A stretch of 44,434 nucleotides of DNA from Candidatus Kaiserbacteria bacterium (lineage in GTDB: Bacteria; Patescibacteriota; Minisyncoccia; Phycocordibacterales; UBA2100), in contig JACRFK010000004.1 of the NCBI GenBank assembly GCA_016217925.1, positions 1 to 44,434 on the forward strand, in the 5' to 3' direction. A program made the translations under genes and the position numbers. The notes below the pieces were generated by a model. The model did not search any database, was not told the DNA's origin, and was given only the letters and a program-made list of their open reading frames with translations. Shown here piece by piece: positions 1 through 33,874 of the stretch. Each line of letters starts with the position of its first letter. The stretch's first letter is position 1.

Positions 1-1086
<1,086 letters not shown>

Positions 1087-3279: not shown

Positions 3280-3903
3280 CTACAACAATCTGTCTTTATC
3301 GAGCAGCACGAGGTGCGGAAAATCGAGGGTATCCCGCATAAGACGGTCTTGAATGGTGAGACGATAGCGGAATTCCGGACCCGAAAAAGCCGCATACCGT
3401 ATCTCACGGCCAAATTGACGTTCAAGTGCACGGATCGCGGTCTCAAGACGCCCTTCGTTCAAGCCGTCTGCTGCGACCAGGAGATCGGCCGGGCGCGACG
3501 GATCCCCCATGAACGACCCCGAGAGCACCACAGCCACAAATCGCCCCGATCCCTTAAGCCCCTTGAGTATGCTGGAGTAATGCACCGGCGAGACTTCGTG
3601 CACGAATTTCGAGAGAGCTACCGAGTGCTTGAATGTGGGGTCGATTGCCCACGCCTCTTTCTTTTGTTTCCCTTCTATTGTGCGGTTGCTGCTATTTCCG
3701 AGTGTAATTACGAATTTCCCGAGCCTCAGTATCCCCAATTTCTCGAGTGCTTTTATCTCTTTCTGTGCCGCCGGCAGCGACACGCCTGCGCGCTTCGCGG
3801 CCAGAGGCGCTGTGAAGACCCCGGACTGGTCGAGAAAAAAGGCGCGGAGAACCTTGGCCCGATTCGTATTACCCATGAAAGTCGCCAAAAAGTCCCCTGC
3901 CAT
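3280..3903 (-). CDS. conserved hypothetical: winged HTH plus nucleotidyltransferase-like C-terminal domain
   Basis: N-terminal helical HTH-like segment and C-terminal VVLSGSF..ADLLV motif. Confidence 0.55.
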   Translation of the reverse strand: MAGDFLATFMGNTNRAKVLRAFFLDQSGVFTAPLAAKRAGVSLPAAQKEIKALEKLGILRLGKFVITLGNSSNRTIEGKQKKEAWAIDPTFKHSVALSKFVHEVSPVHYSSILKGLKGSGRFVAVVLSGSFMGDPSRPADLLVAADGLNEGRLETAIRALERQFGREIRYAAFSGPEFRYRLTIQDRLMRDTLDFPHLVLLDKDRLL

Positions 3904-3954: not shown

Positions 3955-4770
3955 CTATTTCCCGCTCTCCGCTATGGCCCTGAAGGTCACAAGTGCCTGG
4001 TGGAGGGCCCGCACATCATGCGTACGTATGTAGTCGGCACCCTGCGTAGCCGCGAACACCTCCGCCGCAAGTGTGCGGCTTTGGATGTCGATGTCAGGAG
4101 ACGGTGCAATGTTGCGCAGGAACGACTTGCGTGAGACCGATATCATCACCGGCAGTCCGAAGTGCTTTTTTAATTCCGCGACATGCGAGAGGACGGCGAG
4201 CGAAGGCTCCGGATTGCTTGCCAGGAAAAATCCCATGCCGGGGTCAATGATAAGGCGCTCGCGCGCGATACCTGCCGCTTCGAGTGCGGGCAACCGGGTC
4301 CCGAAAAATGAATAGATGGAGTCGAAAACTTCCCGCGTGGTTTTCGGGATGCGCACCGCCTTGTCGAGGTCGGAAATAAAATGCATGACAACCAACTGTG
4401 CCCCGGACGCCGCGAGCTCCGGATACAAAGACTCATCGGGAAATCCGCGGATATCGTTAAGATACGCGATGTGTTTTGCCATCCCAAACCGCAAGACTTC
4501 CGGTTTGGTCGCATCAATCGAAACATCAAGGCCCGGCCTTGATATTGCTTCCAATACGGACCGTATCCGTTCGATTTCAACCTCCGCCGGCACGGGTGCG
4601 GAATGCGGATTGCTCGAGGCGCCGCTTATTTCAACGATATCCGCACCTTCCGCAAGAAGTTTATTTGCGTGCTCTATCGCAGCGCCTGATTCAAGATACT
4701 GTCCGCCGTCGGAAAACGAGTCGGCGGTGATGTTGACGATGCCTACTATTTTCGGTCGATGGGCTTTCAT
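3955..4770 (-). CDS. folP: dihydropteroate synthase, Sul-like
   Basis: GIVNITADSFSDGG, DPGMGFFL, SRKSF and IRTHDV motifs. Confidence 0.93.
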   Translation of the reverse strand: MKAHRPKIVGIVNITADSFSDGGQYLESGAAIEHANKLLAEGADIVEISGASSNPHSAPVPAEVEIERIRSVLEAISRPGLDVSIDATKPEVLRFGMAKHIAYLNDIRGFPDESLYPELAASGAQLVVMHFISDLDKAVRIPKTTREVFDSIYSFFGTRLPALEAAGIARERLIIDPGMGFFLASNPEPSLAVLSHVAELKKHFGLPVMISVSRKSFLRNIAPSPDIDIQSRTLAAEVFAATQGADYIRTHDVRALHQALVTFRAIAESGK

Positions 4771-4835
4771 AGAGATAGGATTTTAGCATGGTACCCGCTT
4801 TTTGAGCTTTGCGGATGCCTCTGCTAGTATGCCGT

Positions 4836-5189
4836 ATGGATTACATTCACATTGACGACCTCAGAGTCTCCGGGAATCACGGAGTCAGAGAGGAGGAGCG
4901 GGCGAAGCCCCAAGAGTTCCTCATCTCGATACGCATCGGCGCCGACACGAAAAAAGCGGCATTGAGCGGACAACTTGCTGATACTATCGACTACCACGAC
5001 ACGCTGAAACTTATCGAACACGTATTTGAGAACACGAGCCACAGCCTCCTCGAGACAATAGCCGAGCATATCGCCGCAGAGATACTGAAGGACAAGCGCG
5101 TGAGCTCGGTCGAACTGACCATAAAAAAAACAGGCGTGTGGCGCAACGGCATCCCCGGCGTCACGATCCGCCGGGAGCAGGCCCGATGA
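4836..5189 (+). CDS. folB: dihydroneopterin aldolase
   Basis: GNHGV-EE..PQEF, DTIDY, LLETIAE and LTIKK motifs. Start at MDYI, after TG-C-TAGTAT. Confidence 0.88.
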   Translation: MDYIHIDDLRVSGNHGVREEERAKPQEFLISIRIGADTKKAALSGQLADTIDYHDTLKLIEHVFENTSHSLLETIAEHIAAEILKDKRVSSVELTIKKTGVWRNGIPGVTIRREQAR

Positions 5190-5649
5190 TGGACAATTTG
5201 TTTGGCGGGAGTTCACCCAGAAGCTGGGAGACCATCTTTTTCGTCACGGGTTCTCGAAGAGCCGGCGCAATTTCATAAAGCGGCCTCAGCACAAAGTCGC
5301 GCTCGCGCAGGCCTGCGTGCGGGACGGTGAGTTCGGGGGTATCGATAATTTCATTTCCATACAAAAGAAAGTCAATATCTATCGCTCGCGGGGCATTGTG
5401 CTCATGCTCCCCTATCTCTTTTTCAACCGACTTTATTTTCTTGAGAACATCCTCCGGAGAAAGTTCCGTCGTCGCCTCGCACACCGCATTGAAAAAGTCC
5501 GGCTGATCCGTGACATACATCGGCTTGGTTTCGTAGGTTGGTGAAATCTTCGTAACAGTAATTTCTGGCGCGAGCGAAGCGAGCGCCCTTTGAATGTTCC
5601 CTGCCCTATCGCCGAGATTTGAACCGAGTCCGAGATATATCGTCTTCAC
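5161..5649 (-). CDS. folK: 6-hydroxymethyl-7,8-dihydropterin pyrophosphokinase
   Basis: YLGLGSNLGDR, YETKP, PRAIDIDFL, LTVPH and ERDFVLRPL motifs. GTG start. Confidence 0.93.
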   Translation of the reverse strand: MKTIYLGLGSNLGDRAGNIQRALASLAPEITVTKISPTYETKPMYVTDQPDFFNAVCEATTELSPEDVLKKIKSVEKEIGEHEHNAPRAIDIDFLLYGNEIIDTPELTVPHAGLRERDFVLRPLYEIAPALREPVTKKMVSQLLGELPPNKLSIIGPAPGGS

Positions 5650-5722
5650 GCCCGCATACTAGCGCGTGCTTTTTGTCTCTGCTAGAGTGCCCTCGGCGGT
5701 ATGCGCCATGAGGAGATTGACC

Positions 5723-5977
5723 ATGAACTTGATTCAGAAGGTCAATGATTGCGGTATTCCTACGGGCGAACATTTCTCTGCGAAAGCGCCCCCAGGAAGA
5801 TTCCGTGTCGTCGTGTTCGACCAAGCGACGGGGGCCCACTATAAGCTACCCGACTTCGGATCCCTGGCCACGGCGGAAGCTGAAGCGAAGGGCCGGGCGT
5901 TCGGTCCTATCATTACCGATATCTATGACTCGGCCGGCAAGAATCTCGGCACGTTCGGGAAAAATCAGGATGAATAA
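5723..5977 (+). CDS. hypothetical protein (84 aa)
   Basis: AGGAG 7 nt before the ATG; protein-like composition; hairpin terminator follows. Confidence 0.6.
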   Translation: MNLIQKVNDCGIPTGEHFSAKAPPGRFRVVVFDQATGAHYKLPDFGSLATAEAEAKGRAFGPIITDIYDSAGKNLGTFGKNQDE

Positions 5978-5993
5978 GTTCTGATCAAACCGC

Positions 5994-6020
5994 AAATGGC
6001 CCGCATTGCGCGGGCCATTT
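5994..6020. terminator. hairpin terminator between convergent genes
   Basis: AAATGGCCCGC-ATTGC-GCGGGCCATTT followed by TGTTTT. Confidence 0.65.
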
Positions 6021-6126
6021 TGTTTTCCAGGAATGAAAAGTTTACTTGAGTGTAACCTGTCACACATCGTTTCCTGCTGGAAACGTGCGCGACCCCGCCT
6101 CGCAGCCAAGCTGCTCCGGCCGAAAG

Positions 6127-6486
6127 TTACTTCAACGTAACTTTCCCGCCTGCCGCTTCTATCTTTGTCTTCCACGCCTCCGCGTCCTCTTTCTTCACGT
6201 CGGCCTTCATGAGGACCGGCGCGCCTTCAACCATGGTCTTCGCTTCCGAGAGACCGAGGCCCAAGACCTCTTTCACGATCTTAATGACCGCGATTTTCTG
6301 TTCACCGAACGAAGTGAGTTCTACGTTGAACTCCGACTTCTCTTCGGCTGCAGGACCTGCTGCAGGACCGGCGACGGCGACTGCCGCTGCCGAGACTCCC
6401 CACTTCTCTTCGATTGCTTTGACGAGTGTGTTGAGCTCGAGCACTGTCATCTTTTCGACTGCTTCGATGATTTGTTCTTGTGTCAT
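6127..6486 (-). CDS. rplL: 50S ribosomal protein L7/L12
   Basis: [29 protein letters not shown] and AGGKVTLK. Confidence 0.97.
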
Positions 6487-6535
6487 AGGAATAGTTAGTT
6501 AGCCACTAGTGGATAGCCACTAGGGCGCTCATAAT

Positions 6536-7033
6536 TTACGAACTCTTAGTCTCTGCGACTTTACTCAACACGACCGCAAAACGCTGACGCGGTGAGTTGA
6601 TGAGTTGTGCGAACATAGCACGCAACGTCGCCATCCCCGGGATCGTTGCGATCTCCTGCATGTGCGCGGCGTCGACGAGCTTGCCCTCGAAGATGCCTCC
6701 CAGGATAGAGAGCTTGTCGGTAAATTTCTTGCCGAATTCGTGCACAAGCCGCGCCGCGACGGTGGCGTCAGTGCCCCCGCCATATGCGATAGCGACTTCG
6801 CCCTCGAGCGGCAATTCGGCATGCGCATGTCCGAGTTGTTCGAGCGCTCGGCGGATGAGCGTCTTCTTCGCGACAAAGTACGAGACACCGTCCGCGCGAA
6901 GAGCACGGCGCATCGCCGACTCGTCAGACACGGAGAATTTCGTAAAGTGCACGAAGACCGACGACGCGCCCGTCTTGAACGCCTCGGCGAGCTTATCGAC
7001 TATTACACCCTTCTCTGCTTTTGTTTTTGCCAT
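6536..7033 (-). CDS. rplJ: 50S ribosomal protein L10
   Basis: KAEK..IV..L, VAKKTLIRRA and upstream position relative to rplL. Confidence 0.95.
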   Translation of the reverse strand: MAKTKAEKGVIVDKLAEAFKTGASSVFVHFTKFSVSDESAMRRALRADGVSYFVAKKTLIRRALEQLGHAHAELPLEGEVAIAYGGGTDATVAARLVHEFGKKFTDKLSILGGIFEGKLVDAAHMQEIATIPGMATLRAMFAQLINSPRQRFAVVLSKVAETKSS

Positions 7034-7138
7034 CTTAGATTTTGTTACGAGCAAAGCGAGTTACTAAATCTTAGATCCCGTGAGATGGCGAAGCCTATCT
7101 CTCTGGGATTGTTCGACCAACAAGGTTGAGGAGTTCGA

Positions 7139-7170
7139 GCCCATTAGAGACGCTACGCGCTCTAACGGGC
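7139..7170. repeat. short hairpin sharing the TIR-family ends
   Basis: GCCCATTAGAG-ACGCTACGCG-CTCTAACGGGC; no flanking duplication. Confidence 0.65.
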
Positions 7171-7171
7171 C

Positions 7172-7248
7172 GTGCCTCGGCAGGCGTCTTACGACTTGAA
7201 TCCCGCTCTTTCACTGGAAAGGGCGGGAACCCGCTTTCTCTGGCCTTG
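7172..7248 (-). promoter_or_regulatory. probable L10 leader (rplJ autoregulatory RNA)
   Basis: Minus strand AGAGAAAGCGGG...TTCAAG...CCTGCCGAGG resembles the kink-turn core of L10 leaders and lies in the expected position. Confidence 0.5.
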
Positions 7249-7256
7249 TGCGGTGC

Positions 7257-7284
7257 ATAGTACAGGATTTAAGCCACGCGTCAA
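7257..7284 (-). promoter_or_regulatory. promoter for rplJ-rplL
   Basis: TTGACG (7284-7279), 16-nt spacer, TACTAT (7262-7257). Confidence 0.6.
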
Positions 7285-7350
7285 CCCCGTTAGAAATTGC
7301 GCCCACGCTTGCGCGCCCTAATGGGCTGGGGCGGGCTATTTCTAACGGAG
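7285..7350. mobile_element. MITE-like TIR element, copy 2 (66 bp)
   Basis: CCCCGTTAGAAAT / ATTTCTAACGGAG; TCAA on both flanks. Confidence 0.7.
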
Positions 7351-7458
7351 TCAAATTGACATATTTGTCAAATATGCTATGGTTTCCGGCGGGAAGGCGT
7401 CAAAATAAGTGGACGGAGCTCCTCAGTTGTGTCAATCACAATTGAGAGGTAATCGACC

Positions 7459-7680
7459 ATGATTCCTGATACACCGGCAAGCGAAGTAATCGAGCACTGC
7501 AAGAGGCGTTACGGGCACGATGCGTTGTTCCAAAAGGTAATGCTCGACCAAGTCGAGCGGCTCCTGAAAGGAAAACGCGCACTGTTCCTCGAGAAGCCCG
7601 AATGCAGGGACCTCGGTGAAGAAGTCTTATGGATCTGCTTCAGCAAGAAGGCAGTCCTCGCTTCGCCATTGCAACGGTGA
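7459..7680 (+). CDS. hypothetical protein (73 aa)
   Basis: GAGGT SD before the ATG; upstream TTGACA (7356) and TATGGT (7378). Confidence 0.5.
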   Translation: MIPDTPASEVIEHCKRRYGHDALFQKVMLDQVERLLKGKRALFLEKPECRDLGEEVLWICFSKKAVLASPLQR

Positions 7681-7768
7681 CGGGAAAGACGTCAAAAACA
7701 GTTCACCATGCGTCGCGCCGGGCCCTTCGGGACCCGGCGCAAGTTCTATTCAAAGGAGCGGCAGGAAA

Positions 7769-8050
7769 ATGGGCGAATGTTTGAAACGTATTGAAGGGAG
7801 GAAACTCCTCGAGGCGTCGAAAAATGACGCAGAAAACGCAAAGGCCGTGATAGAAATCAGAGGTGGCCTGATGAGCAACGCCTTCTGCCGGATTATCGAG
7901 GAGGCGCGTACGTGTACTTTCGAACGACTCGAAAGCCTCGTGGCAAATCTGCATCCGGATAACAAGAAGTTGCTCAGGGGGATAACCCTGGAAACCGGAC
8001 TGGCGTTTTGGAACCCGAAGAAGCGGCGTGAATTCCGGTTCTGGGAATGA
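7769..8050 (+). CDS. hypothetical protein (93 aa)
   Basis: AGGAG/AGGA upstream of the ATG; charged helical composition. Confidence 0.5.
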   Translation: MGECLKRIEGRKLLEASKNDAENAKAVIEIRGGLMSNAFCRIIEEARTCTFERLESLVANLHPDNKKLLRGITLETGLAFWNPKKRREFRFWE

Positions 8051-8098
8051 CTCAAGGGCGGGCGAACCGCGCAGCGCCGGACTTCATTGCCCGGCGTT

Positions 8099-8266
8099 TT
8101 ATTTTACCTGCTTGAGCATTGCTGCGGCCGCAGCGGCCTGTTGCTGTTGTGCGTCCTGCCCCGATGCGTATTTCTGTACCGCGTATGTCACTCCGAAGCT
8201 TATCGAAATGAGCAGCGTAAAGCCGAAGAAAAAGCGTGCAAACGAGTTTACCGGCGACAGAGCCAT
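8099..8266 (-). CDS. small single-TM protein (55 aa), absent from the ORF track
   Basis: Hand translation gives MALSPVNSFARFFFGFTLLISISFGVTYAVQKYASGQDAQQQQAAAAAAMLKQVK; TATAAT 7 nt before the ATG. Confidence 0.7.
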   Translation of the reverse strand: MALSPVNSFARFFFGFTLLISISFGVTYAVQKYASGQDAQQQQAAAAAAMLKQVK

Positions 8267-8391
8267 AACCTATATTATACGCCTTGTATTTAGAAGTACT
8301 TCTTCATCGGTTCCAACGAGGGCATCTTGCCAAGGGTTTGTGTGATGAGGGGGAGAAGGAGAAAGCCCGAGAAGGCTCGGATCATGTACTT

Positions 8392-8604
8392 TTAGAGTGA
8401 GTACCCGAGCAAAGAAAGTAGGATGGAGAATAAATAAGGTGCAGCGAGGTAACCTATAGTGCCAAAAAACACGCTGAGAATCAAAGAGTTGACTGTGTTG
8501 ACTTTGATACCGAACCTAGCTACCAAGAAAACTATAGAGAAGACCACTATAAAACATGCGTATCCAAAATTCACTAAGAATTCCCCCAATCCTATATCAT
8601 CCAT
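8392..8604 (-). CDS. small hydrophobic membrane protein (70 aa)
   Basis: Two TM-like segments; starts 3 nt after the lipase stop. Confidence 0.55.
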   Translation of the reverse strand: MDDIGLGEFLVNFGYACFIVVFSIVFLVARFGIKVNTVNSLILSVFFGTIGYLAAPYLFSILLSLLGYSL

Positions 8605-8607
8605 ATA

Positions 8608-11019
8608 TCAGTGGTTAATTAACCAATTTATATCCGCCGCCAATAATTCATATGCTTGCTGGTTAATAATACCAGTCTTTTTGACGCCGTTGAGTATGCT
8701 GAGCATGGATTTGTATATGCTGTTTTTATTACCTGGTCTTTTTTGCTGCTGCGCCAACGTAAGTAACGTGCTGAGCGACGTTTTGATGCCGGCAGATTTT
8801 ATCCATCCCAGAGAGAATGCGCGATTAATGTCGCTTTGAGTGCTGTTCGCCGTCGCTATCACCTGGATTACCCTCTCTGAAGTCGTGGCGTTATTTACGA
8901 GATCCATTGCATAGGCAGAGATCGTGTGGTTACCGAGTGTTTGAAAGAAAAGGTCGGTCGTAGAGCTTGCCGCAACGGTCGTTGTGTCAAAGGCAACACT
9001 GGATGAAGCAACTCCGGTCGCATCACTAAAGATGGCGCGTATCGGCAGCTTCTCCGAATGCGTGTAAGTCGCTGATGTAGGTTGAACAATGGTGATGGTT
9101 GGAGGAGTCTGGTCAACGGGCGCAATGGTAGTCTGATTTGGTTGGTCTGGATTCACGTCAACGCTAAGCTCGGTTATCAAATCCGGTAGCGTTTGTCCGG
9201 TAAAGAACGTTTCGCTCGAAGTTGCATTGCCGATCACTCCTGTGGCGATTGTATAAGAACCGCCGTTGCCGGTGCCCTGTGTGATGATTTTGTATACACC
9301 GTCGAGTGGATTAGGGATAGTTATGTATTCCTCATCGGTCCCAAAACCGGAGTAAAAAGCGTCGGGAATTTGATTGAACTCGTCTCCGGTGGCAAAGTTC
9401 TTCCCGACCTTCAGACCATCAGGCGCGACGACGACAATGTCAGCCGGAGAAAGGATTTGGAAGATAAGTACATTCTTCAATGTTTCTGCCAACCCGTGAT
9501 TATTGTTAACAAGCGTTGCCGCGTCGTTGCCTGTGAGTTTCTTAAATACCATACCTTCTGTCTTGGTGGGTAATTCGTTATGTTCCGAACTAGTGATTTG
9601 TAGATCGCTGATAACCAAAGCCGCGGAAGACAACGGCACAGTGCCGTCACCGGCTCCGCGCTCTAGCCCCTGATCAGTTGAACTATCGCCAAATCTCTCC
9701 GGCTTGCCGAGTCCCCACAGGGCTACAGGGTTGACGACGGTTGGTGGAACAACACGGATGGTTGTAATTGTTGTGTCATCAGCGGTCTGACCAACGAAGT
9801 TCGAAATCGTTACCCCAGAATTGTAGAGTTCAGTAACATTGTTGTTCAAATCAGAAAGGAAGAGGTTGTTGGGATACCAAGCTGAATTCGGAAACGAAGG
9901 AATGTTAGACGAGCCGACGTGTTTGATATATCCGTAGACGGGTAGTAATTCTTGGACAGAAGGGACGGGAAAGTTACGTTCGTAGTCGAATAGCTTTGAA
10001 TAACCATGTTTACGCGCTTCAATCCTGAGAAAGGTTAATAGCTGTTGATCGCCAGCGTCAGTGTCTGCTTCTCCCCCCTCCCACATCAAATAAGCTTTCG
10101 GTGCACCTAGGTGTGGCGTACCGAGGAATATTAGTTTCCGGACATCGTGCTCATAGTCATTCGACTGAATATATTGTCTTGCGACGAGACCTCCCATCGA
10201 GTGGGCTACTATATCGACTTTGTCACACCCACAAATAGTTTTGACCTCATCTATTTTCTGCTTCAAAAGAAACGCCGTTTCTCTATTGGACACGCGCCAC
10301 TCATAGGGAAACGGGAAAAGCGTTACACCCTTCTCATACCCATTCGCATCGAGAGTATCAATAAGGTTGTCATATGCATGCGTGATAGGGTCGATGAGCC
10401 ACTCCCCGTTGTGCTGAGCAGATCCGAGGATCCCAGGAATAATGACAACGGGTGTGTACGCGGTTGGAGCGCTTGCGTCGGTGACGGTAAAGCGAATGGT
10501 TTCTATGTAGTCTTCGGCAGATTGCGCATACGCGGTCTCACCAAACACAAAATGCAAAAAGGTATTGAAGGGATTCCTATTCACCTGAGATGCTCGTTCT
10601 TGGTACACGTCGAGCTCATAGACTCCCGGCTGCTCCCAGATGAACGTTTGCGCACCGGAAAATCCCCCAATCGGTCCTATGAGTTCTCTTGTTTGCGATT
10701 GCTCTTGTTTGAGTACGCGGTACAAAACACCGCTCACACTGAAAGAAACTCCGGATTCGCTGTGAGCAACGTAGACATCCTTCGAGACGTGGAGTGGAAC
10801 AGGGTACGTTCCGCCATCTTCCATAAATGTGAGTCTGGCCGAAATAAGCTCGCCTGTATTGTCATCAAATATCATGTCGCCCCACACAAGCTGCGAGGTA
10901 TCCGCATTGGATGTCCTGGGTGTCGCGAGAAGGAGGAGTGTGGCGGCCGACGCGGCCAAGAATATTGCCGTGCCGTGCATGTGAGGCGGCCAAACACTCG
11001 ACCTCGGAGCGTTTTGCAT
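8608..11019 (-). CDS. secreted alpha/beta-hydrolase (LCAT/PGAP1-like lipase or acyltransferase) with C-terminal Ig-like/helical domains
   Basis: Signal-like N-terminus, PVVIIPGILGS, FPYEWR, VAHSMGGL nucleophile elbow, LGTPHLGAP and GDGTVP. Confidence 0.85.
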   Translation of the reverse strand: MQNAPRSSVWPPHMHGTAIFLAASAATLLLLATPRTSNADTSQLVWGDMIFDDNTGELISARLTFMEDGGTYPVPLHVSKDVYVAHSESGVSFSVSGVLYRVLKQEQSQTRELIGPIGGFSGAQTFIWEQPGVYELDVYQERASQVNRNPFNTFLHFVFGETAYAQSAEDYIETIRFTVTDASAPTAYTPVVIIPGILGSAQHNGEWLIDPITHAYDNLIDTLDANGYEKGVTLFPFPYEWRVSNRETAFLLKQKIDEVKTICGCDKVDIVAHSMGGLVARQYIQSNDYEHDVRKLIFLGTPHLGAPKAYLMWEGGEADTDAGDQQLLTFLRIEARKHGYSKLFDYERNFPVPSVQELLPVYGYIKHVGSSNIPSFPNSAWYPNNLFLSDLNNNVTELYNSGVTISNFVGQTADDTTITTIRVVPPTVVNPVALWGLGKPERFGDSSTDQGLERGAGDGTVPLSSAALVISDLQITSSEHNELPTKTEGMVFKKLTGNDAATLVNNNHGLAETLKNVLIFQILSPADIVVVAPDGLKVGKNFATGDEFNQIPDAFYSGFGTDEEYITIPNPLDGVYKIITQGTGNGGSYTIATGVIGNATSSETFFTGQTLPDLITELSVDVNPDQPNQTTIAPVDQTPPTITIVQPTSATYTHSEKLPIRAIFSDATGVASSSVAFDTTTVAASSTTDLFFQTLGNHTISAYAMDLVNNATTSERVIQVIATANSTQSDINRAFSLGWIKSAGIKTSLSTLLTLAQQQKRPGNKNSIYKSMLSILNGVKKTGIINQQAYELLAADINWLINH

Positions 11020-11073
11020 ATTCGCGCAATTATCCCACGTGTTTTCGTGCCTGGGTCTCTTTTCCCCATGAGC

Positions 11074-11098
11074 AGAGCCCCGCTGTGGGCGGGGCTCT
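11074..11098. terminator. hairpin downstream of the 11119-11949 gene
   Basis: AGAGCCCCGC-TGTGG-GCGGGGCTCT. Confidence 0.55.
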
Positions 11099-11118
11099 GA
11101 AGAAAACGCTAGTAAAGG

Positions 11119-11949
11119 TTACGGATGCGAATTTACGTATGCTCGCGTCAGGGCTCCGAAGAAGCCAGACGCAGGTTTGATACCCGCGGCCTTCTGGAGC
11201 TTGATGAGCGCTGCTTTCGTCGCTCCACCGAATTTCGATGTCTCGTTGCCCGGCGAGCCTGGGCCGCTTGATGCGACAACGTAGCCGTGAGTATTGAGAT
11301 ACACCTGGAGTGCTTTCACATCAGCGCCCGTGGAGCCGACTTGCAGACTGCGGCTAAAGCCCGCGCCTGTAGCCGGTGCCACCCCACCCTGCAAGGCCTG
11401 CAGCTGTGCCACAAGAGAGGCGAGCAGAGCTTGGAGTGAAGCAATGGTCGGGGTCGCGGGTGTTGCAGGCGTAGCTGGAGTTGCTGGCGTGGCAGGCGTA
11501 GCCGGGGTTGCTGGTGTGGCCGGAGTTGCCGGAGTTGAGCCGCCTCCTCCGCCACCTCCGCCGCCACCTCCGCCGTGTCCGCCGACATCCAAATTACAAA
11601 GCGCACCGTCTGGGGTTACCGTGACAGTTAACGCTCCCGTCGCCGTGTAGGAGAGAGTGGACTGCGCGCTCGTGCAAACGTTTGATGAGTAGGTAGTCGA
11701 ATCGGGACTTAAGATATTCCGGTTGGGTGCCGTCAACGCGATAGAGGAACCGTCTGCGAGCGTGAAGCTAAAAGTGGTCGCCCCCACTGTAATCGATTCT
11801 ACAACCGCGGTTGTGCCCGAGACGTTGATTGTGATGCCGTTGACGCTAATGACCGTGTCGGTCGTCAGGCTGACGTCGTCGGCCGCGGCGAACGTAAGCG
11901 CCGGGACGAGGAACGCGACCGCCGATCCGATTGCAATTAGTTTTCTCAT
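11119..11949 (-). CDS. secreted protein with poly-Gly/(TPA)n linker and C-terminal peptidoglycan-binding domain
   Basis: Signal peptide, G-run, TPA repeats, FSRSLQVGSTGADVKALQVYLN and FGGATKAAL. Confidence 0.8.
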   Translation of the reverse strand: MRKLIAIGSAVAFLVPALTFAAADDVSLTTDTVISVNGITINVSGTTAVVESITVGATTFSFTLADGSSIALTAPNRNILSPDSTTYSSNVCTSAQSTLSYTATGALTVTVTPDGALCNLDVGGHGGGGGGGGGGGGSTPATPATPATPATPATPATPATPATPATPTIASLQALLASLVAQLQALQGGVAPATGAGFSRSLQVGSTGADVKALQVYLNTHGYVVASSGPGSPGNETSKFGGATKAALIKLQKAAGIKPASGFFGALTRAYVNSHP

Positions 11950-29194: not shown

Positions 29195-29236
29195 GTCGAG
29201 CGGGTCTAAATCACTGCTCAGGCTATAATGGCCACC

Positions 29237-30133
29237 ATGCCGGTAAGTATCGTGGCGGAAGGCGGCTCAATGCGCGCGGCGTACGCCGTCGGAGCGGTGA
29301 ACGCGCTTTTTTCTCACTACGGCCTCAAACGGGTCGACGTCGTTACGGGTACCTCGGGCTCGGCTCCTGCAATGGCATTTTACGCTGCCGGCTCCTTCCC
29401 TTCCTGCTACAACGCATGGCGCGGGGAGGTCCCTTCTCCGCGACTTTTGGGTTTCTCGAACATCCTGCACCGGCGACCGTACTTTGATATTGATTATCTC
29501 GTGGACGTCATTGTGCGTGAACGCGCAGGACTGGACGTCACAGCCCTAAAACGCTCCCCGGTGCGGCTTGTCTTACCTGTTACTTCTTACCGCACCGGTC
29601 ACATAGAATATGTAGATTTCAATACATCGAACCTCAACGTATTCGACGTGATGAGAGCCGCGATGAGCATTCCTATCGCCTACAACAAAACCGTCCGGCT
29701 CGACGACGACACCTACTTCGACAGTCACCTCGGAGACCCGCTCTGCCTCGACAACCCGTACATTGCGGGTACGAGAAAGATAATCATCCTCACATATCCC
29801 CTCGACTATGTGTGGTCGCGCAGGAAAAGGATGCAGACCCGTCTGTTCCGTCCTCTCATCAGCTCCGTCGTGTACCGCGCGCTTTTGGCATCGTTTGATA
29901 AGCGGGCGGAGGCAATGCGGCGATGCCATGAATGCATGCAAACCGGGGATGTGATAATCGCGCCGGTGAAGTTGGAGGGGCGACCGCTCGATAACAGTCG
30001 ACAAAATATAGATTTCCTCATCCGGCAGGGATACGAAGACGCAGTCCAAAATCTCCATCTTCAGGGTTTAATCGGTACGATGCGGACGTCGCCGAGGGCC
30101 GACTTCTATTTCCCGCCCCCAACAACCGTATGA
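29237..30133 (+). CDS. patatin-like phospholipase 1
   Basis: AEGGSMRAAY oxyanion loop, GTSGS nucleophile and RAAMSIP..YN....D..Y.D. Start 7 nt after TATAAT. Confidence 0.82.
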   Translation: MPVSIVAEGGSMRAAYAVGAVNALFSHYGLKRVDVVTGTSGSAPAMAFYAAGSFPSCYNAWRGEVPSPRLLGFSNILHRRPYFDIDYLVDVIVRERAGLDVTALKRSPVRLVLPVTSYRTGHIEYVDFNTSNLNVFDVMRAAMSIPIAYNKTVRLDDDTYFDSHLGDPLCLDNPYIAGTRKIIILTYPLDYVWSRRKRMQTRLFRPLISSVVYRALLASFDKRAEAMRRCHECMQTGDVIIAPVKLEGRPLDNSRQNIDFLIRQGYEDAVQNLHLQGLIGTMRTSPRADFYFPPPTTV

Positions 30134-31059
30134 ATATCAGCATCGTAGCAGAGGGTGGAGGTGTCCGTGGCGCGTATGTGTGTGGGGTTATGTGCGCCCT
30201 GTGGATGGAATACGGCTTGCGGCGGGTAGACGTCGCTACGGGGACATCTGCCTCTGCCGGCACGCTCGCCTACTTTACCGCAGGCCACGGACACCGCGAT
30301 GCCTGGGATGTATGGACCAAGGAGGTCGCCTCTCCGGAATTTATCAGCGTGCGTAATCTACTTCGTCTACGCCCGTTGATGGACCTCGATCATCTCATCG
30401 ACGTCGTATTCAGATACCGTTACCCGCTTGATGTCGCCGCAATAAAGAGATCCTCGATGCGATTATTTATTCCGGTCGAATCAGTCACCACCGGCAAGAT
30501 TGAATACATAGATGCACAGCGTTCTCCGTACGATGTCTTCGAAATATTAAAGGCGTCCAGTGCCGCCCCGATTGCGTACAATAAAACAATTGCACTCGGC
30601 GGAGACCGTTACTGCGACCCCTATTTCAACGAGGCTGTCCCACTCGGTGCCCCCGCCCTGGCCAGAACAAAAAAAATAATCATACTCGCCAAACCCCGTA
30701 CCCACGAACTCGCTGTCGAGAGCAACGTTGCCATACATCTCGGCAGACCTTTTATTTCCTCCGCGGTTTATCGCACGATGCTTCACTCCGGCAAGCACCG
30801 GAATGCGCTTATGGAACAGTGTAAAACGCTCGAAGAAGAGGGGCATATCGTTATCGCCCCCGAACATCTCTACGGTAGCGCATTAGGTAACCGACCGGAA
30901 TCCCTTCGATACATGATCCGGCGGGGCTATCAGGATGCCGTCGCACACGGACCACTGCGAGCACTTGTGGAAGATCTGTGTCGCTCACCAAAAAGGAGTG
31001 CTTACTTCGATAGTGATAATCTCGCTCCTATCCGGCCGAGTTTTATGGACACCGTATGA
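30130..31059 (+). CDS. patatin-like phospholipase 2 (tandem paralog)
   Basis: AEGGGVRGAY, GTSAS and KASSAAP..YN....GG..YCD; overlaps the upstream stop (ATGA). Confidence 0.85.
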   Translation: MNISIVAEGGGVRGAYVCGVMCALWMEYGLRRVDVATGTSASAGTLAYFTAGHGHRDAWDVWTKEVASPEFISVRNLLRLRPLMDLDHLIDVVFRYRYPLDVAAIKRSSMRLFIPVESVTTGKIEYIDAQRSPYDVFEILKASSAAPIAYNKTIALGGDRYCDPYFNEAVPLGAPALARTKKIIILAKPRTHELAVESNVAIHLGRPFISSAVYRTMLHSGKHRNALMEQCKTLEEEGHIVIAPEHLYGSALGNRPESLRYMIRRGYQDAVAHGPLRALVEDLCRSPKRSAYFDSDNLAPIRPSFMDTV

Positions 31060-31358
31060 ACATCGGCATCGACATCGTCCGTATTTCACGCGTTGAAGAA
31101 CTGCTGCGCGACCCGGTGCGCGCGGGAGAGGTGTTCGCGCCTGAGGAAATGACCGCGGATGTACAGACGATGGCCGGGCGGTTTGCCGCGAAAGAAGCGT
31201 ATTTCAAGGCGGCCGGTGAAAAACGCGATTGGAAATCGGTCCTGGTATTGAAACACGAAGGGGGGATGCCGTATCTCGTGTGCCCCGAGGAAAACAGAGC
31301 TAAAGTGAGCATCAGCCATGACGGCGAGTATGCAACTGCTATAGTTCTTATCGAATAG
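31056..31358 (+). CDS. acpS: holo-[acyl-carrier-protein] synthase
   Basis: IGIDIV, AGRFAAKEA..KA and SISHD..YA.A.V. Confidence 0.93.
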   Translation: MNIGIDIVRISRVEELLRDPVRAGEVFAPEEMTADVQTMAGRFAAKEAYFKAAGEKRDWKSVLVLKHEGGMPYLVCPEENRAKVSISHDGEYATAIVLIE

Positions 31359-31359
31359 T

Positions 31360-33852
31360 ATGAAAACCGAGTTACGGACCATCACCGACCTTATTGAGTC
31401 GTTTGACGCAAGACGCGGCGACGCAATCATATACAAGAACGGCTTCAGGACCTTCCGCTATTCATATCCCCAACTCGCCTCTCTCGTCCGTAAGTGTGCG
31501 TCGCTGTACCAAAAACACGGGATACAGGCCGGGGACAAAATCGCGCTCTGGGGACCGAATCGTCCCGAGTGGGTCATTGCACATTTGGGTGCCGTATATT
31601 GCGGCGCGGTAGCGGTCCCGATAGACATACAAGCTCTTCCCGAGGCAGCCGCAAAAATCGTGCAGCATTCAGAGGTGCGACTCATTGTCAAATCCGCGCT
31701 GCGCAAGCCGTATCTCACCGAAGTCCCGACCATTATCTTGGACGACTTGGAATTCGACCTCGACCTTCCGGAAGCCGGCCCCCGGGAAGCGCGCGAGGAT
31801 GAGCCCCTGGATATCGTTTACACATCCGGAACGACCGGCGACCCCAAGGGAGTCGTGCTCACGCACGGCAATATCATGTCAAACGTGCGCGGTATCATCG
31901 AACATCTCCGGGTGGACGAACGGGACTCCATCCTGTCGTTGCTCCCGATAAGTCACATGCTCGGACAAACGTGCGGAGTGCTTGCTCCTCTTGCAGCCGG
32001 AATGTCCGTCGTCTTCTTGGGCTCGATGACCGCGGGCGCGATGTTCGCGGCATTCCGGCAGGAACGCATCACCATCGTGCTCGCGGTACCGCGGATACTC
32101 CAAGGAATACGCTCTGGTGTTGAATCGAAGCTGCAAAGCAGCGGAATCGGGCGTATGCTCTCCCGGCTATCAGTGCGGACCGCAGGCGCACCCCGGACCG
32201 TGAAAAAAATATGTTTCTTCCTCATACATCGTCCCTTCGGTTCTTCACTCCGCTTTTTTGTTTCCGGAGGAGCCGCTATTGACGCCGCGACGGTCTCTTT
32301 TGCGGACCGGTTCGGTTTCAAAATACTCCAGGGATACGGTCTCACCGAATGCTCGCCCATTCTGACCGCTGAACGCGAATCGGAAGCGGGAGGCAAAAGC
32401 GCAGGAGTTGTTATCAGAGATGTGGAGCTCCGCATTGCGCCGGACGGGGAAATCCTCGCCCGCGGGCCGAATATATTCACTGAATACTATAAGGACCCGG
32501 ATCGCACCGCAGAGACTTTCAGAGAAGGCTGGTTCCTGACGGGAGATTTCGGAGAGCTTGATGCCGGCGGACATTTGTCTATTAAGGGCCGGAAGAAGGA
32601 GACCATCGTGACTCCGGCGGGAGTAAATGTATATCCGGACGACGTCGAGCCTATTCTGAACGCCGTGCCCGGCGTGAAGGAATCGTGCGTAGTGGGTATA
32701 CAACGCGACGACGGTGAGGAAGTACACGCCGTCGTTATCCCCTCGGACCCGGCGGTCCCGGCATCCGAGATTATGCACGCCGCAAACGGCCGCCTGAACT
32801 CGAGCCAGCACATCCAGTCGCTGTCATTTTGGACCGGTCCCGAATTCCCCAAGACGACGACACTGAAAATTAAACGCGGGCTTGTTCGTGAAAGTGTCAG
32901 AGAGGCGAGAAAAGGTCATGTCGCAGCCGCCGTCGCACCATCGAAGCTGCGAGGCCTGATATCCCAAGTGACACGGGTGCCGGTGGAGGAGATTGCGGAG
33001 AATTCTCGCCTGTATGCCGACCTGAAGCTTGACTCAATCGGGCGTATCGAGCTTTCTTCGCTCATAACCCAGGAGTACTTCTTTGATTTTGAGGAGGACC
33101 ACATCACCGAAACGACGAACGTCGGAAACCTCGAACGCATCGTCGCATCGCGCGCAAAACTAAACTCGTATTTTAACTTCCCCGGGTGGCCGCACTGGCG
33201 GATCATGGCCATCGCACGCTTCCTGGGGATGGAGCTGATTAACGCTAACATTGCACGCTTCTTTATCCGGGAAACCATCCGCGGCAAGGAAAATCTGCGC
33301 GGACTGCACGGCCCCGTCATTTTCGCCGCCAATCACGTGAGCTTCGGCGACCATGCCCTTATATTTCGAGCCCTGCCGTATCGTTATCGCTACATGTTCG
33401 CTTCCCCCGCATTCGCCGAATTCTTTTTCTTGGACAAGAGCAGACCCCCCTGGGAACGCGCGTGGAAAAAGTTCTCGTATTATTACGGGGCAGCAACTAT
33501 GGCGCTTTTCCCCACATCGGAGGTCTACAGCTCAAAGCGCGCGCTCGAACACACCGGCGGCCTCATCGACAGCGGTGAAAGTATTCTCATCTTTCCTGAA
33601 GCCGAGCGCACGCGCACGCGTGAAATGCTTCCGTTCAGAAAGGGCACCGCAATATTACTGAAAAACATACGCGTACCGGTCGTCCCTATCGGTCACCGTG
33701 GGATGGAATATATTTATCCGCGCGATGCCGCATTCCCGCACTTCGGAAAGGCGACGGTCAACATCGGAAAACCGATAACGTTCGGGAAGGAGTCAATAGA
33801 GGAAATTACCACCCGACTCCAGGCAGAGATTGAAAAACTCAGACATCTTTAA
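31360..33852 (+). CDS. fusion of long-chain acyl-adenylate ligase, ACP (PP-binding) and PlsC-type acyltransferase
   Basis: YTSGTTGDPKG, GYGLTECSP and TGDFG; DLKLDSIGRIEL Ppant site; ANHVSFGD (HX4D) and IFPEAERT. Confidence 0.9.
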   Translation: MKTELRTITDLIESFDARRGDAIIYKNGFRTFRYSYPQLASLVRKCASLYQKHGIQAGDKIALWGPNRPEWVIAHLGAVYCGAVAVPIDIQALPEAAAKIVQHSEVRLIVKSALRKPYLTEVPTIILDDLEFDLDLPEAGPREAREDEPLDIVYTSGTTGDPKGVVLTHGNIMSNVRGIIEHLRVDERDSILSLLPISHMLGQTCGVLAPLAAGMSVVFLGSMTAGAMFAAFRQERITIVLAVPRILQGIRSGVESKLQSSGIGRMLSRLSVRTAGAPRTVKKICFFLIHRPFGSSLRFFVSGGAAIDAATVSFADRFGFKILQGYGLTECSPILTAERESEAGGKSAGVVIRDVELRIAPDGEILARGPNIFTEYYKDPDRTAETFREGWFLTGDFGELDAGGHLSIKGRKKETIVTPAGVNVYPDDVEPILNAVPGVKESCVVGIQRDDGEEVHAVVIPSDPAVPASEIMHAANGRLNSSQHIQSLSFWTGPEFPKTTTLKIKRGLVRESVREARKGHVAAAVAPSKLRGLISQVTRVPVEEIAENSRLYADLKLDSIGRIELSSLITQEYFFDFEEDHITETTNVGNLERIVASRAKLNSYFNFPGWPHWRIMAIARFLGMELINANIARFFIRETIRGKENLRGLHGPVIFAANHVSFGDHALIFRALPYRYRYMFASPAFAEFFFLDKSRPPWERAWKKFSYYYGAATMALFPTSEVYSSKRALEHTGGLIDSGESILIFPEAERTRTREMLPFRKGTAILLKNIRVPVVPIGHRGMEYIYPRDAAFPHFGKATVNIGKPITFGKESIEEITTRLQAEIEKLRHL

Positions 33853-33874
33853 AATGCATGCTACGCTTCCCGTC

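What the first reader, a model, noticed from the sequence alone, without database searches (positions are those of the whole stretch)
3955..4770. Chromosomal FolP with the Sul-type signature, resembling Sul3
Seen: DPGMGFFLASNPE, NDIRGFPD and ASSNP. Established: mobile sulfonamide-insensitive Sul1-3 have DPGMGFFL with a two-residue insertion relative to E. coli FolP (DPGFGFGK). From memory Sul3 starts KIFGIVNITTDSFSDGG and has GFFLGSNPE, very close to this protein. Here it sits with folB/folK and no integron or IS. Inference: natively sulfonamide-insensitive DHPS in a CPR genome, a possible environmental relative of sul genes.
Basis: partly seen in the sequence, partly recalled or inferred. Interest (0 to 1): 0.72.

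Follow-up and report, generated by a model that had tools for sequence, protein, structure and literature searches.

The report
Sul-type folate enzyme in CPR chromosome
A tiny uncultured groundwater-type bacterium (Kaiserbacteria, CPR) carries as its own chromosomal folate gene a dihydropteroate synthase built like the plasmid-borne Sul enzymes that make pathogens resistant to sulfa drugs, so it is probably naturally drug-insensitive, but it is an old relative of those genes, not their source.

Summary
Window 3955-4770 (-) is an intact 271-aa dihydropteroate synthase (DHPS) containing DPGMGFFLASNPE, NDIRGFPD and ASSNP. Against solved structures and NCBIfam it scores far better with Sul2, Sul3 and Sul1 than with ordinary FolP. 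Identity is 50/47/42% to Sul2/3/1 and 33-34% to E. coli FolP.

It has the two-residue insertion and all three residues shown experimentally to matter in Sul enzymes: M179, F181 and L183. An AlphaFold model (pLDDT 92.7) superposes best on Sul3 and Sul2 (TM 0.92-0.95).

In neighbour-joining trees the Sul-type versus ordinary split has 99% bootstrap, even with the motif columns removed. The window protein sits in its own clade (95-98%) and is never sister to Sul3.

The gene is chromosomal. It lies with folK and folB next to rplJ/rplL, its GC is typical of the window, and no IS or integron is present. RecA is 86-92% identical to Kaiserbacteria/Paceibacterota RecA. The same gene order recurs in five relatives whose DHPS is 55-72% identical, so the gene is vertically inherited.

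Verdict: a new member, in a new lineage, of the known Sul-type/FolP* kind. Drug insensitivity is predicted, not shown. It is not a progenitor of any mobile sul gene.

The parts
3955..4770 (-). folP: Sul-type dihydropteroate synthase, 271 aa, intact ORF
   Evidence: Pfam PF00809 scores 194 bits over residues 10-251, and TIGR01496 scores 233 bits against a cutoff of 162.6. The best PDB hits are Sul2 (1.8e-78), Sul3 (5e-74) and Sul1 (1e-59); ordinary FolPs reach at best about 1e-45. The AF2 model has pLDDT 92.7 and its top Foldseek hits are Sul3 8scd and Sul2 7s2k.
4207..4245 (-). alpha6 / pABA-site motif DPGMGFFLASNPE, with the two-residue insertion; M179, F181 (codon 4228-4230) and L183
   Evidence: Alignments A1 and the 228-sequence set. 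These residues are equivalent to Sul2 M177/F179/L181. In PMC10328974 the Phe is essential for pan-sulfonamide resistance, and changing the Leu compromised resistance. DSSP on the model gives a helical turn at residues 180-182.
4606..4620 (-). loop-2 ASSNP (ordinary DHPS has ESTRPG here)
   Evidence: A51 is a Sul-type signature column: Ala in 80% of Sul-type sequences and in 0 of 70 ordinary FolPs.
4435..4458 (-). NDIRGFPD segment; P111 here and Y116 just downstream (nt 4423-4425) are Sul-type signature residues
5161..5649 (-). folK (HPPK), the step before DHPS
   Evidence: Pfam PF01288, 1.2e-37. It is 58% identical to the folK that precedes folP in Ca. Kaiserbacteria.
4809..5189 (+). folB (dihydroneopterin aldolase). 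It lies between folK and folP on the opposite strand. The likely true start is the ATG at 4836. Its 3' end overlaps the folK 3' end by 29 nt.
   Evidence: Pfam PF02152, 5.3e-27. It is not present at this position in the relatives.
3280..3903 (-). conserved 207-aa protein of unknown function immediately downstream of folP; part of the conserved gene order
   Evidence: It is 63% identical to the gene after folP in Ca. Kaiserbacteria GCA_001781125.1, and a gene occupies this position in every syntenic locus examined. There is no Pfam hit; the counterpart in L090 has a weak HTH_20 hit.
6127..7054 (-). rplL and rplJ (ribosomal proteins L7/L12 and L10): housekeeping anchors of the conserved neighbourhood
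   Evidence: ORFs; Pfam labels on the identical Logan contig L086; same position in all syntenic relatives.

Best explanation
This is the native chromosomal folP of a Kaiserbacteria-like Parcubacterium (CPR/Patescibacteria). It has been inherited vertically within that lineage. It encodes a working DHPS that condenses DHPP, made by the adjacent FolB and FolK, with pABA. Its pABA pocket has the Sul architecture, an alpha6 turn M179-G180-F181-F182-L183 carrying the extra residues. [quoted passage not shown] The enzyme is therefore predicted to be intrinsically insensitive to sulfonamides. Shown here: family membership, motif, fold, chromosomal location, lineage and vertical inheritance. Inferred: catalytic activity, pABA use and drug insensitivity. 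The gene belongs to the same ancient Sul-type/FolP* family as sul1-3 but forms a separate branch and is not their progenitor.
For: Family and fold. Sul2, Sul3 and Sul1 are the top hits by sequence and by structure, with TM 0.92-0.95 and rmsd 1.4-1.7 A.

Catalytic residues: columns invariant between the window, Sul1-3, EcFolP and relatives include N13, D86, N105/D106, D176, K215, R249 and H251.

Sul determinants: the insertion plus M179, F181 and L183 are present. The window carries 11 of the 19 residues that Sul1-3 share and fewer than 10% of ordinary FolPs have. PMC10328974 reports that Phe-to-Gly makes Sul1-3 drug-sensitive, that a Phe-Gly insertion makes EcDHPS resistant, and that Leu-to-Glu compromises resistance. 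PMC6335563 reports that even more distant chromosomal FolP* proteins, from Parvibaculum and Leptospira, confer sulfamethoxazole resistance in E. coli.

Phylogeny: the Sul-type versus ordinary split has 99% bootstrap, and the window clade 95-98%, with or without the motif columns.

Chromosomal and vertical: a 23S rRNA gene, rplJ/rplL, ftsK, recA, efp, rpsF and metG lie on the same piece of DNA. The gene's GC is 55.8% and GC3 62.9%, against 54.1+-2.7 and 62.1+-5.1 for 30 window genes. The order L10-L12-(folK)-folP-~207aa-MscS-like-NTP transferase is conserved in five independent assemblies whose DHPS is 55-72% identical. A FolK-FolP fusion occurs in a 72%-identical relative, P0012.

Lineage: RecA.

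No close mobile copy: no plasmid record holds a relative above 60% identity.
Against: There is no biochemical or MIC measurement. Eight of the 19 Sul1-3 signature columns differ in the window. The window matches only 37 of 43 positions of the published PROSITE Sul pattern. The key Phe is not fixed in the clade: two members have Leu and three have Tyr (P0003 and P0004 are 73-75% identical by BLASTP), so selection on that side chain may be loose. The trees are neighbour-joining on Kimura distances and the deep nodes are unresolved. Only 44 kb was visible, so a second folP, or missing folE, folC, folA or pab genes, cannot be excluded. folB lies on the opposite strand between folK and folP, so these genes are not a simple operon.
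Confidence: 0.8

Rival explanations
1. It is an ordinary, sulfonamide-sensitive housekeeping FolP that happens to have a Sul-like sequence. The motif is a neutral lineage feature and gives no drug insensitivity in this background.
For: No phenotype has been measured. The key position varies between F, L and Y among close relatives. Eight of the 19 Sul1-3 signature columns are not shared.
Against: All three experimentally validated determinants (Met, Phe, Leu) and the insertion are present. Inserting Phe-Gly alone raised resistance in EcDHPS, and FolP* proteins more divergent than this one confer resistance (PMC10328974, PMC6335563). The model superposes on ligand-bound Sul3 and Sul2 at 1.4-1.7 A.
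Confidence: 0.12
2. It is a recently acquired mobile sul gene, or a plasmid or contaminant fragment mis-assembled into a CPR contig.
For: Sul-type genes are highly mobile elsewhere. One syntenic relative has an rve-family integrase about 2.4 kb downstream of folP (L090/L091).
Against: Identity to Sul2/3/1 is only 50/47/42%, and all NCBIfam Sul scores are far below their cutoffs. No plasmid relative exceeds 60% identity. GC and GC3 are typical of the window. None of the ORFs of 150 aa or more that I took as genes is a transposase or integrase, and no flanking repeats were found. The same neighbourhood appears in five independent assemblies and in an independent Logan assembly of the same sequence.
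Confidence: 0.02
3. It is the direct environmental progenitor, or the closest chromosomal relative, of sul3 or of another mobile sul gene.
For: The tblastn E-value against plasmids and the top Foldseek hit marginally favour Sul3. The window (47%) is closer to Sul3 than the Leptospira MAG FolP found here (41%).
Against: A grouping of WINDOW, or its whole clade, with Sul3 has 0% bootstrap. Other proteins in the set are closer to each mobile gene: Lewinella sp. W8 at 59% and Streptomyces P0113 at 56-57% to Sul3, P0097 at 62-64% to Sul2, and P0125 at 58-59% to Sul1. Identity of 47-50% is far too low for a recent mobilisation.
Confidence: 0.02
4. It is a DHPS-fold enzyme that uses a different aryl substrate from pABA, or is a decaying remnant in a genome that salvages folate.
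For: CPR genomes are often described as lacking folate synthesis (bioRxiv 10.64898/2026.07.13.738296, citing Razzouk 2025). No pab, folE, folC or folA gene lies in the 44-kb window. One clade member lacks the adjacent folK.
Against: The ORF is intact and the pterin and pyrophosphate residues are conserved. folK and folB are adjacent and a FolK-FolP fusion exists in a relative. The gene is conserved across a clade spanning 55-76% identity, which indicates purifying selection. Sul enzymes with the same pocket use pABA with normal affinity (PMC10328974).
Confidence: 0.04

Closest known systems
Sul2 (plasmid-borne sulfonamide-resistant DHPS; PDB 7S2J/7S2K; NCBIfam NF000295)
   Same: It is the best sequence match: phmmer 1.8e-78, 50% identity over 262 aa. 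Both have DPGMGFFL with M/F/L at Sul2 positions 177/179/181, ASSNP in loop 2 and YLNDIRGFPD. The model superposes with TM 0.94 and rmsd 1.7 A.
   Different: The window scores 286 bits against a 575-bit cutoff, so it is not Sul2. It is chromosomal, next to folK, folB and rplJL, rather than on plasmids with strA/strB or IS elements. It sits in a separate, well-supported clade.
Sul3 (PDB 7S2L/7S2M/8SCD; NF000296)
   Same: Identity is 47%. Sul3 is the top Foldseek hit (TM 0.92/0.95, rmsd 1.4 A).
   Different: The window scores 259 bits against a 475-bit cutoff. It is never sister to Sul3 in the trees (0% bootstrap). Lewinella sp. W8 (59%) and other proteins are closer to Sul3.
Sul1 (class 1 integron 3'-CS; PDB 7S2I; NF000294)
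   Same: Same insertion and same M/F/L residues; 42% identity.
   Different: It is the most distant of the three. There is no qacEdelta1 or intI1 context. The window scores 214 bits against a 600-bit cutoff.
Chromosomal FolP* of Rhodobiaceae (Parvibaculum lavamentivorans) and Leptospiraceae (Leptospira interrogans), Sanchez-Osuna et al. 2019, PMC6335563
   Same: This is the closest concept: an ancient, chromosomally encoded, compositionally ameliorated folP carrying the Sul two-residue insertion. Those genes confer sulfamethoxazole resistance in E. coli.
   Different: The phylum differs (CPR) and so does the neighbourhood (rplJL-folK-folP, not glmM or the Leptospira arrangement). Identity to a Leptospira MAG FolP is only 37-39%. 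That paper reported no Sul motif in any other chromosomal folP; this lineage shows the distribution is wider.
Ordinary FolP/DHPS (E. coli K-12 b3177; PDB 1AJ0)
   Same: Same reaction, TIM-barrel fold and catalytic residues. TIGR01496 is passed.
   Different: Identity is 33-34%. EcFolP has DPGFGFGK without the insertion and ESTRPG in loop 2. The two groups are separated by a 99%-bootstrap split.
Sul4 (NF033502) and soil folP-SMZ_B27 (PDB 5VIS)
   Same: Both are sulfonamide-resistant DHPS variants of environmental origin.
   Different: Sul4 lacks the insertion (PMC6335563), and the window scores only 106 bits against its 600-bit cutoff. folP-SMZ_B27 scores like an ordinary FolP: 1.3e-45 and 34-36% identity.

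Membership tests
Dihydropteroate synthase (EC 2.5.1.15; Pfam PF00809, TIGR01496) | Full-length match to the family models above their curated cutoffs | tested here: met
   PF00809 scores 194.1 bits (cutoff 25.5) over residues 10-251. TIGR01496 scores 233.3 bits (cutoff 162.6).
Dihydropteroate synthase (EC 2.5.1.15; Pfam PF00809, TIGR01496) | Conserved pterin and pyrophosphate site residues (Ec Asn22, Asp96, Asn115, Asp185, Lys221, Arg255, His257) | tested here: met
   N13, D86, N105, D176, K215, R249 and H251 are invariant columns in alignment A1, which includes EcFolP. Mapping to the E. coli numbers rests on my knowledge of the DHPS literature.
Dihydropteroate synthase (EC 2.5.1.15; Pfam PF00809, TIGR01496) | (beta/alpha)8 barrel fold | tested here: met
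   The AF2 model has pLDDT 92.7 and pTM 0.91, with eight strand-helix units. All 50 top Foldseek PDB hits are DHPS or Sul structures.
Dihydropteroate synthase (EC 2.5.1.15; Pfam PF00809, TIGR01496) | Catalyses DHPP + pABA -> 7,8-dihydropteroate | not testable with these tools
   This needs an enzyme assay or delta-folP complementation.
Sul-type DHPS (Sul1-3 plus chromosomal FolP*) | Two-residue insertion in the alpha6 region relative to ordinary FolP | tested here: met
   GFFL in the window against GF--GK in EcFolP in A1. All 70 ordinary FolPs in the 228-sequence alignment have gaps at both inserted columns.
Sul-type DHPS (Sul1-3 plus chromosomal FolP*) | Phe at Sul1-178 / Sul2-179 / Sul3-177, essential for resistance (PMC10328974) | tested here: met
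   F181, codon 4228-4230.
Sul-type DHPS (Sul1-3 plus chromosomal FolP*) | Leu (180/181/179) and Met (176/177/175) flanking the Phe | tested here: met
   L183 and M179. Ordinary FolPs have Phe aligned at the Leu column and mostly Ile at the Met column.
Sul-type DHPS (Sul1-3 plus chromosomal FolP*) | Groups with Sul1-3 to the exclusion of ordinary FolP on sequence outside the motif | tested here: met
   42-taxon NJ tree with 500 bootstraps gives 99% with the motif columns removed. In the 228-taxon tree the split is approximate (Jaccard 0.93-0.95, bootstrap 22-35) because of a few intermediate sequences.
Sul-type DHPS (Sul1-3 plus chromosomal FolP*) | Exact match to the 43-position PROSITE 'Sul motif' of Sanchez-Osuna et al. 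(Supplementary Data 2) | tested here: not met
   The window matches 37/43 positions; the mismatches are I175, A184, P189, H196, V197 and A198. Apart from three proteins whose relation to Sul1/Sul2 I did not check (P0038, P0221, P0242), the only exact matches in 294 sequences are Sul1-3 and near-identical Sul1/Sul2 copies. A Leptospira MAG FolP matches only 28/43. This is therefore a search seed rather than a family definition.
Sul-type DHPS (Sul1-3 plus chromosomal FolP*) | Confers sulfonamide resistance / enzyme not inhibited by sulfamethoxazole | not testable with these tools
   This is a prediction only.
Named mobile alleles Sul1, Sul2, Sul3, Sul4 (NCBIfam exception models) | Score at or above the curated cutoff of the allele model | tested here: not met
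   Sul2 286.5/575, Sul3 258.8/475, Sul1 214.3/600, Sul4 105.9/600.
Named mobile alleles Sul1, Sul2, Sul3, Sul4 (NCBIfam exception models) | Carried on a plasmid, integron or IS-associated element | tested here: not met
   The gene lies in a housekeeping chromosomal context that is conserved across relatives, with no transposase or integrase in the window. The plasmid database holds no relative above 60% identity.

The most novel reading that the evidence does not exclude
A whole Kaiserbacteria-like lineage of CPR bacteria uses a Sul-type enzyme as its only, vertically inherited DHPS. CPR would then be a large, ancient and so far undiscussed chromosomal reservoir of sulfonamide-insensitive DHPS. 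The published model, in which the Sul architecture arose in Leptospiraceae and exists chromosomally only there and in Rhodobiaceae, would be incomplete, and the recent claim that CPR lack DHPS altogether would be wrong for this lineage.
Probability: 0.5. Interest if true: 0.6.

Novelty: new member of a known kind. Interest (0 to 1): 0.42.

Why it matters
Sul-type DHPS enzymes are the main cause of clinical sulfonamide resistance, and their direct ancestor is still unidentified. This gene shows that the Sul pocket architecture is the native, syntenically conserved folP of a CPR lineage. That extends the chromosomal reservoir beyond the two families named in 2019. It also supports the view that insensitivity to a synthetic drug long pre-dates the drug. 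It is a concrete counter-example to the statement that CPR lack DHPS.

It does not identify the source of sul1, sul2 or sul3, because 42-50% identity is far too distant. The existence of many GFF-motif DHPS sequences in databases was already noted in 2023, and JGI pipelines already label these relatives 'dihydropteroate synthase type 2'. The finding therefore adds to what is known rather than changing it.

Tried and rejected
- **Genome census.** One of them, N[ILV]TxDSFSDG, also fits ordinary FolP. It is not a census and says nothing about how common the gene is in CPR. It did supply named outgroups plus Lewinella, Leptospira, Planctomycetales and Alphaproteobacteria Sul-type sequences.
- **Taxon names.** The listing of cluster members gave no taxon names for 10 key relatives. 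Lineage was established instead through RecA and gene order.
- **Large tree.** In the 228-taxon NJ tree, relations among Sul1/2, Sul3 and the window clade have bootstrap near 0. I make no claim about which Sul-type branch is basal or about the direction of transfer.
- **PROSITE pattern.** The strict published Sul pattern is not matched, but I rejected it as a membership criterion because, apart from three proteins whose identity to Sul1/Sul2 I did not check (P0038, P0221, P0242), it matched only Sul1-3 and their near-identical copies.
- **folB in relatives.** I tested whether the 124-aa ORF upstream of folK in Kaiserbacteria is the displaced folB. It shows no similarity.
- **Razzouk et al. 2025.** The paper on missing DHPS in CPR is not in the library and is cited only second-hand.
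- **Literature searches.** None found a paper reporting Sul-type DHPS in CPR, Parcubacteria or Patescibacteria.

Full report
**Observation.** Window 3955-4770 on the minus strand is a complete ORF (ATG to TAG) of 271 aa. The reference strings recalled from memory are also correct. I translated sul3, sul2 and sul1 from annotated plasmids and folP from E. coli K-12. Sul3 begins MSKIFGIVNITTDSFSDGG and has DPGMGFFLGSNPE. EcFolP has DPGFGFGK. In the alignment the window and Sul1-3 carry two residues that EcFolP lacks.

**What the protein is.**
- It is a full-length DHPS: Pfam Pterin_bind scores 194 bits, and TIGR01496 scores 233 bits against a cutoff of 162.6.
- Against all PDB sequences the best matches are Sul2 (1.8e-78), Sul3 (5e-74) and Sul1 (1e-59). 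Ordinary DHPS enzymes start at about 1e-45.
- NCBIfam gives the same order: Sul2 286 bits, Sul3 259, Sul1 214 and Sul4 106. All are far below the allele cutoffs of 475-600, so it is none of the named mobile alleles.
- Identity is 50% to Sul2, 47% to Sul3, 42% to Sul1 and 33-34% to EcFolP.
- The catalytic columns are invariant across the window, Sul1-3 and EcFolP: N13, D86, N105/D106, D176, K215, R249 and H251.
- An AlphaFold2 model built from 40 homologues without templates has pLDDT 92.7 and pTM 0.91. Foldseek ranks Sul3 8scd (TM 0.92/0.95, rmsd 1.4 A) and Sul2 7s2k (TM 0.94, rmsd 1.7 A) first, then Sul1, then the soil enzyme folP-SMZ_B27, then ordinary DHPS.
- DSSP on the model gives a short helical turn at residues 180-182. 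Venkatesan et al. describe the same conformation for the equivalent Sul residues (PMC10328974).

**Sul determinants.** Venkatesan et al. 2023 reported the following:
- The alpha6 Phe (Sul1 F178, Sul2 F179, Sul3 F177) is essential for pan-sulfonamide resistance.
- The adjacent Leu contributes to resistance and packs against a conserved Met.
- A Phe-Gly insertion evolved in E. coli DHPS reproduces the effect.

The window has all three as M179, F181 and L183. I also listed the 19 alignment columns where Sul1-3 agree and fewer than 10% of 70 ordinary FolPs share the residue. The window matches 11 of them, including loop-2 A51, P111, Y116, A138, V193, E237 and L256.

The strict 43-position PROSITE pattern of Sanchez-Osuna et al. 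is not matched (37/43). Apart from three proteins whose relation to Sul1/Sul2 I did not check (P0038, P0221, P0242), its only exact matches are Sul1-3 and near-identical Sul1/Sul2 copies. A Leptospira MAG FolP, from the family those authors count as Sul-type, matches only 28/43. This probably helps explain why their search did not recover sequences like this one.

**Phylogeny.** I combined 120 close homologues, the 150 best representatives at 50% clustering, named genomic sequences and the references.
- In a 228-taxon NJ tree the window falls in a 65-member clade with bootstrap 75-79. That clade contains the proteins named Ca. Kaiserbacteria and Ca. Parcubacteria. Relations between this clade, Sul1/Sul2 and Sul3 are unresolved.
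- In a cleaner 42-taxon set with 500 bootstraps, the split between Sul-type and ordinary FolP has 99% support, with or without the motif columns. The window clade has 95-98%. WINDOW+Sul3, or clade+Sul3, has 0%.
- Other proteins in the set are closer to each mobile gene than the window is. For Sul3 these are Lewinella sp. W8 (59%) and Streptomyces P0113 (56-57%). For Sul2 it is P0097 (62-64%), and for Sul1 it is P0125 (58-59%).

The refuting condition 'groups with ordinary FolP' therefore fails, but the specific Sul3 affinity in the title is not borne out.

**Genomic setting and lineage.**
- The window carries the 5' part of a 23S rRNA gene, rplJ/rplL, ftsK, recA, efp, rpsF, metG and tatD. None of the ORFs of 150 aa or more that I took as genes is a transposase or integrase. 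No repeats bracket the gene.
- folK (5161-5649, -) and folB (4809-5189, +) flank it.
- The gene's GC (55.8%) and GC3 (62.9%) sit at the mean of 30 window genes (54.1+-2.7 and 62.1+-5.1).
- RecA is 86-92% identical to proteins named Candidatus Kaiserbacteria, Paceibacterota, Parcubacteria or Patescibacteria.
- The order LCAT-like lipase ... L10 - L7/L12 - (folK) - folP - ~207-aa protein - MscS-like protein - NTP transferase recurs in five other places. These are Ca. Kaiserbacteria RIFCSPLOWO2_12_FULL_53_8 (GCA_001781125.1; DHPS 69-72% identical), a Ca. Parcubacteria MAG (GCA_041168925.1; 66%), and three metagenome contigs with DHPS at 55-60% identity. Those five span the whole NJ clade.
- Sul-type homologues just outside the clade (56-58% identical) sit alone in metabolically rich contexts that do not look like CPR.
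- No plasmid in PLSDB holds a relative above 60% identity.

The gene is therefore native to, and vertically inherited in, a Kaiserbacteria-like lineage.

**Mechanism.** Shown here: a DHPS fold with an intact active site, adjacent HPPK and aldolase genes, and a Sul-type pABA pocket. Inferred: the enzyme makes dihydropteroate from DHPP and pABA, and F181, buttressed by M179 and L183, sterically excludes the sulfonamide moiety while still allowing pABA to bind, as in Sul1-3. This inference is strengthened by the report that FolP* proteins from Parvibaculum and Leptospira confer sulfamethoxazole resistance in E. coli (PMC6335563); the Leptospira-family FolP sampled here is more divergent from Sul1-3 than the window protein is. 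I put the probability of drug insensitivity at about 0.8. The main doubt is that the Phe position is Leu or Tyr in some close relatives.

**Relation to what is known.** The kind is known. Chromosomal Sul-motif folP was described in Rhodobiaceae and Leptospiraceae in 2019, and that paper stated the motif was absent from other chromosomal folP genes. In 2023 the GFF motif was noted in 'hundreds' of NCBI DHPS entries, without taxonomy. JGI pipelines already call many of these relatives 'dihydropteroate synthase type 2'. From my own knowledge this corresponds to the KEGG sul2-type orthologue. I found no paper placing Sul-type DHPS in CPR. A 2026 preprint, citing Razzouk et al. 2025, attributes CPR sulfonamide resistance to an absence of DHPS. 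This window is a counter-example for one lineage.

**Verdict.** This is a new member, in a new lineage, of a known kind. Interest is moderate.

Noticed in passing
window 4809-5189 (+) versus 5161-5649 (-): folB is wedged between folK and folP on the opposite strand, and its 3' end overlaps the 3' end of folK by 29 nt. In the syntenic relatives that have folK, it abuts or overlaps folP, and none has folB at this position; one relative (L095) lacks the adjacent folK as well. The 124-aa ORF upstream of folK in Kaiserbacteria is unrelated to FolB.
   Followed up: partly
window 1-1086 (-) and 1087-1598: The 5' 1039 model positions of a 23S rRNA gene lie directly downstream of a protein gene (NTP transferase, 1599-2339 -). 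There is no 16S or spacer tRNA upstream, and no tRNA anywhere in the 44 kb. The rRNA genes appear to be unlinked.
   Followed up: no
window 29228-35005 (+): A run of lipid-handling genes: two patatin-like phospholipases, an 830-aa AMP-binding/PP-binding/acyltransferase fusion (Aas-like) and a cyclopropane-fatty-acid-synthase homologue. It looks like a lipid scavenging and remodelling cluster in a reduced CPR genome.
   Followed up: no
L007 (Lewinella sp. W8, NZ_SNAQ03000007.1) 6001-11379: The Sul-type DHPS closest to Sul3 among those collected here (59% identity) lies beside a hexapeptide acetyltransferase, a glyoxalase/bleomycin-resistance-fold protein, a FAD-binding monooxygenase and a 317-aa DHFR-domain protein. 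This neighbourhood resembles a resistance island in a Bacteroidota chromosome.
   Followed up: partly
P0103, P0113 (Streptomyces spp.) and L023: Some Streptomyces encode a Sul-type DHPS with Tyr at the key Phe position (DPGLGYFL), 53-55% identical to the window protein. Another Streptomyces genome shows an ordinary FolP (DPGLGFSK). These may be accessory second copies.
   Followed up: no
L097 4001-6844 and L098 4001-6801: Two proteobacteria-like contigs share a mini-synteny: a standalone Sul-type DHPS, a convergent ferredoxin/FAD reductase and a LysR regulator, next to TRAP transporter genes and not next to folK.
   Followed up: no
L090 / L091 9141-10157: In a syntenic Parcubacteria MAG an rve-family integrase (IS) follows the NTP-transferase gene, at the position where the window has its 23S rRNA gene.
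   Followed up: no
P0012 (423 aa): A relative 72% identical to the window DHPS is a FolK-FolP fusion (PF01288 + PF00809). This supports the functional coupling of the two genes in this lineage.
   Followed up: no
window 5994-6020: A perfect 11-bp palindromic hairpin lies between rplL and a small opposite-strand ORF (5666-5977). It is probably a bidirectional terminator separating the ribosomal protein genes from the fol genes.
   Followed up: no
window 3280-3903 (-): A 207-aa protein with no Pfam match is conserved immediately downstream of folP in every syntenic relative (63% identity to the Kaiserbacteria copy; a weak HTH_20 hit in one relative). Its function is unknown, and it may be co-regulated with folP.
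   Followed up: partly
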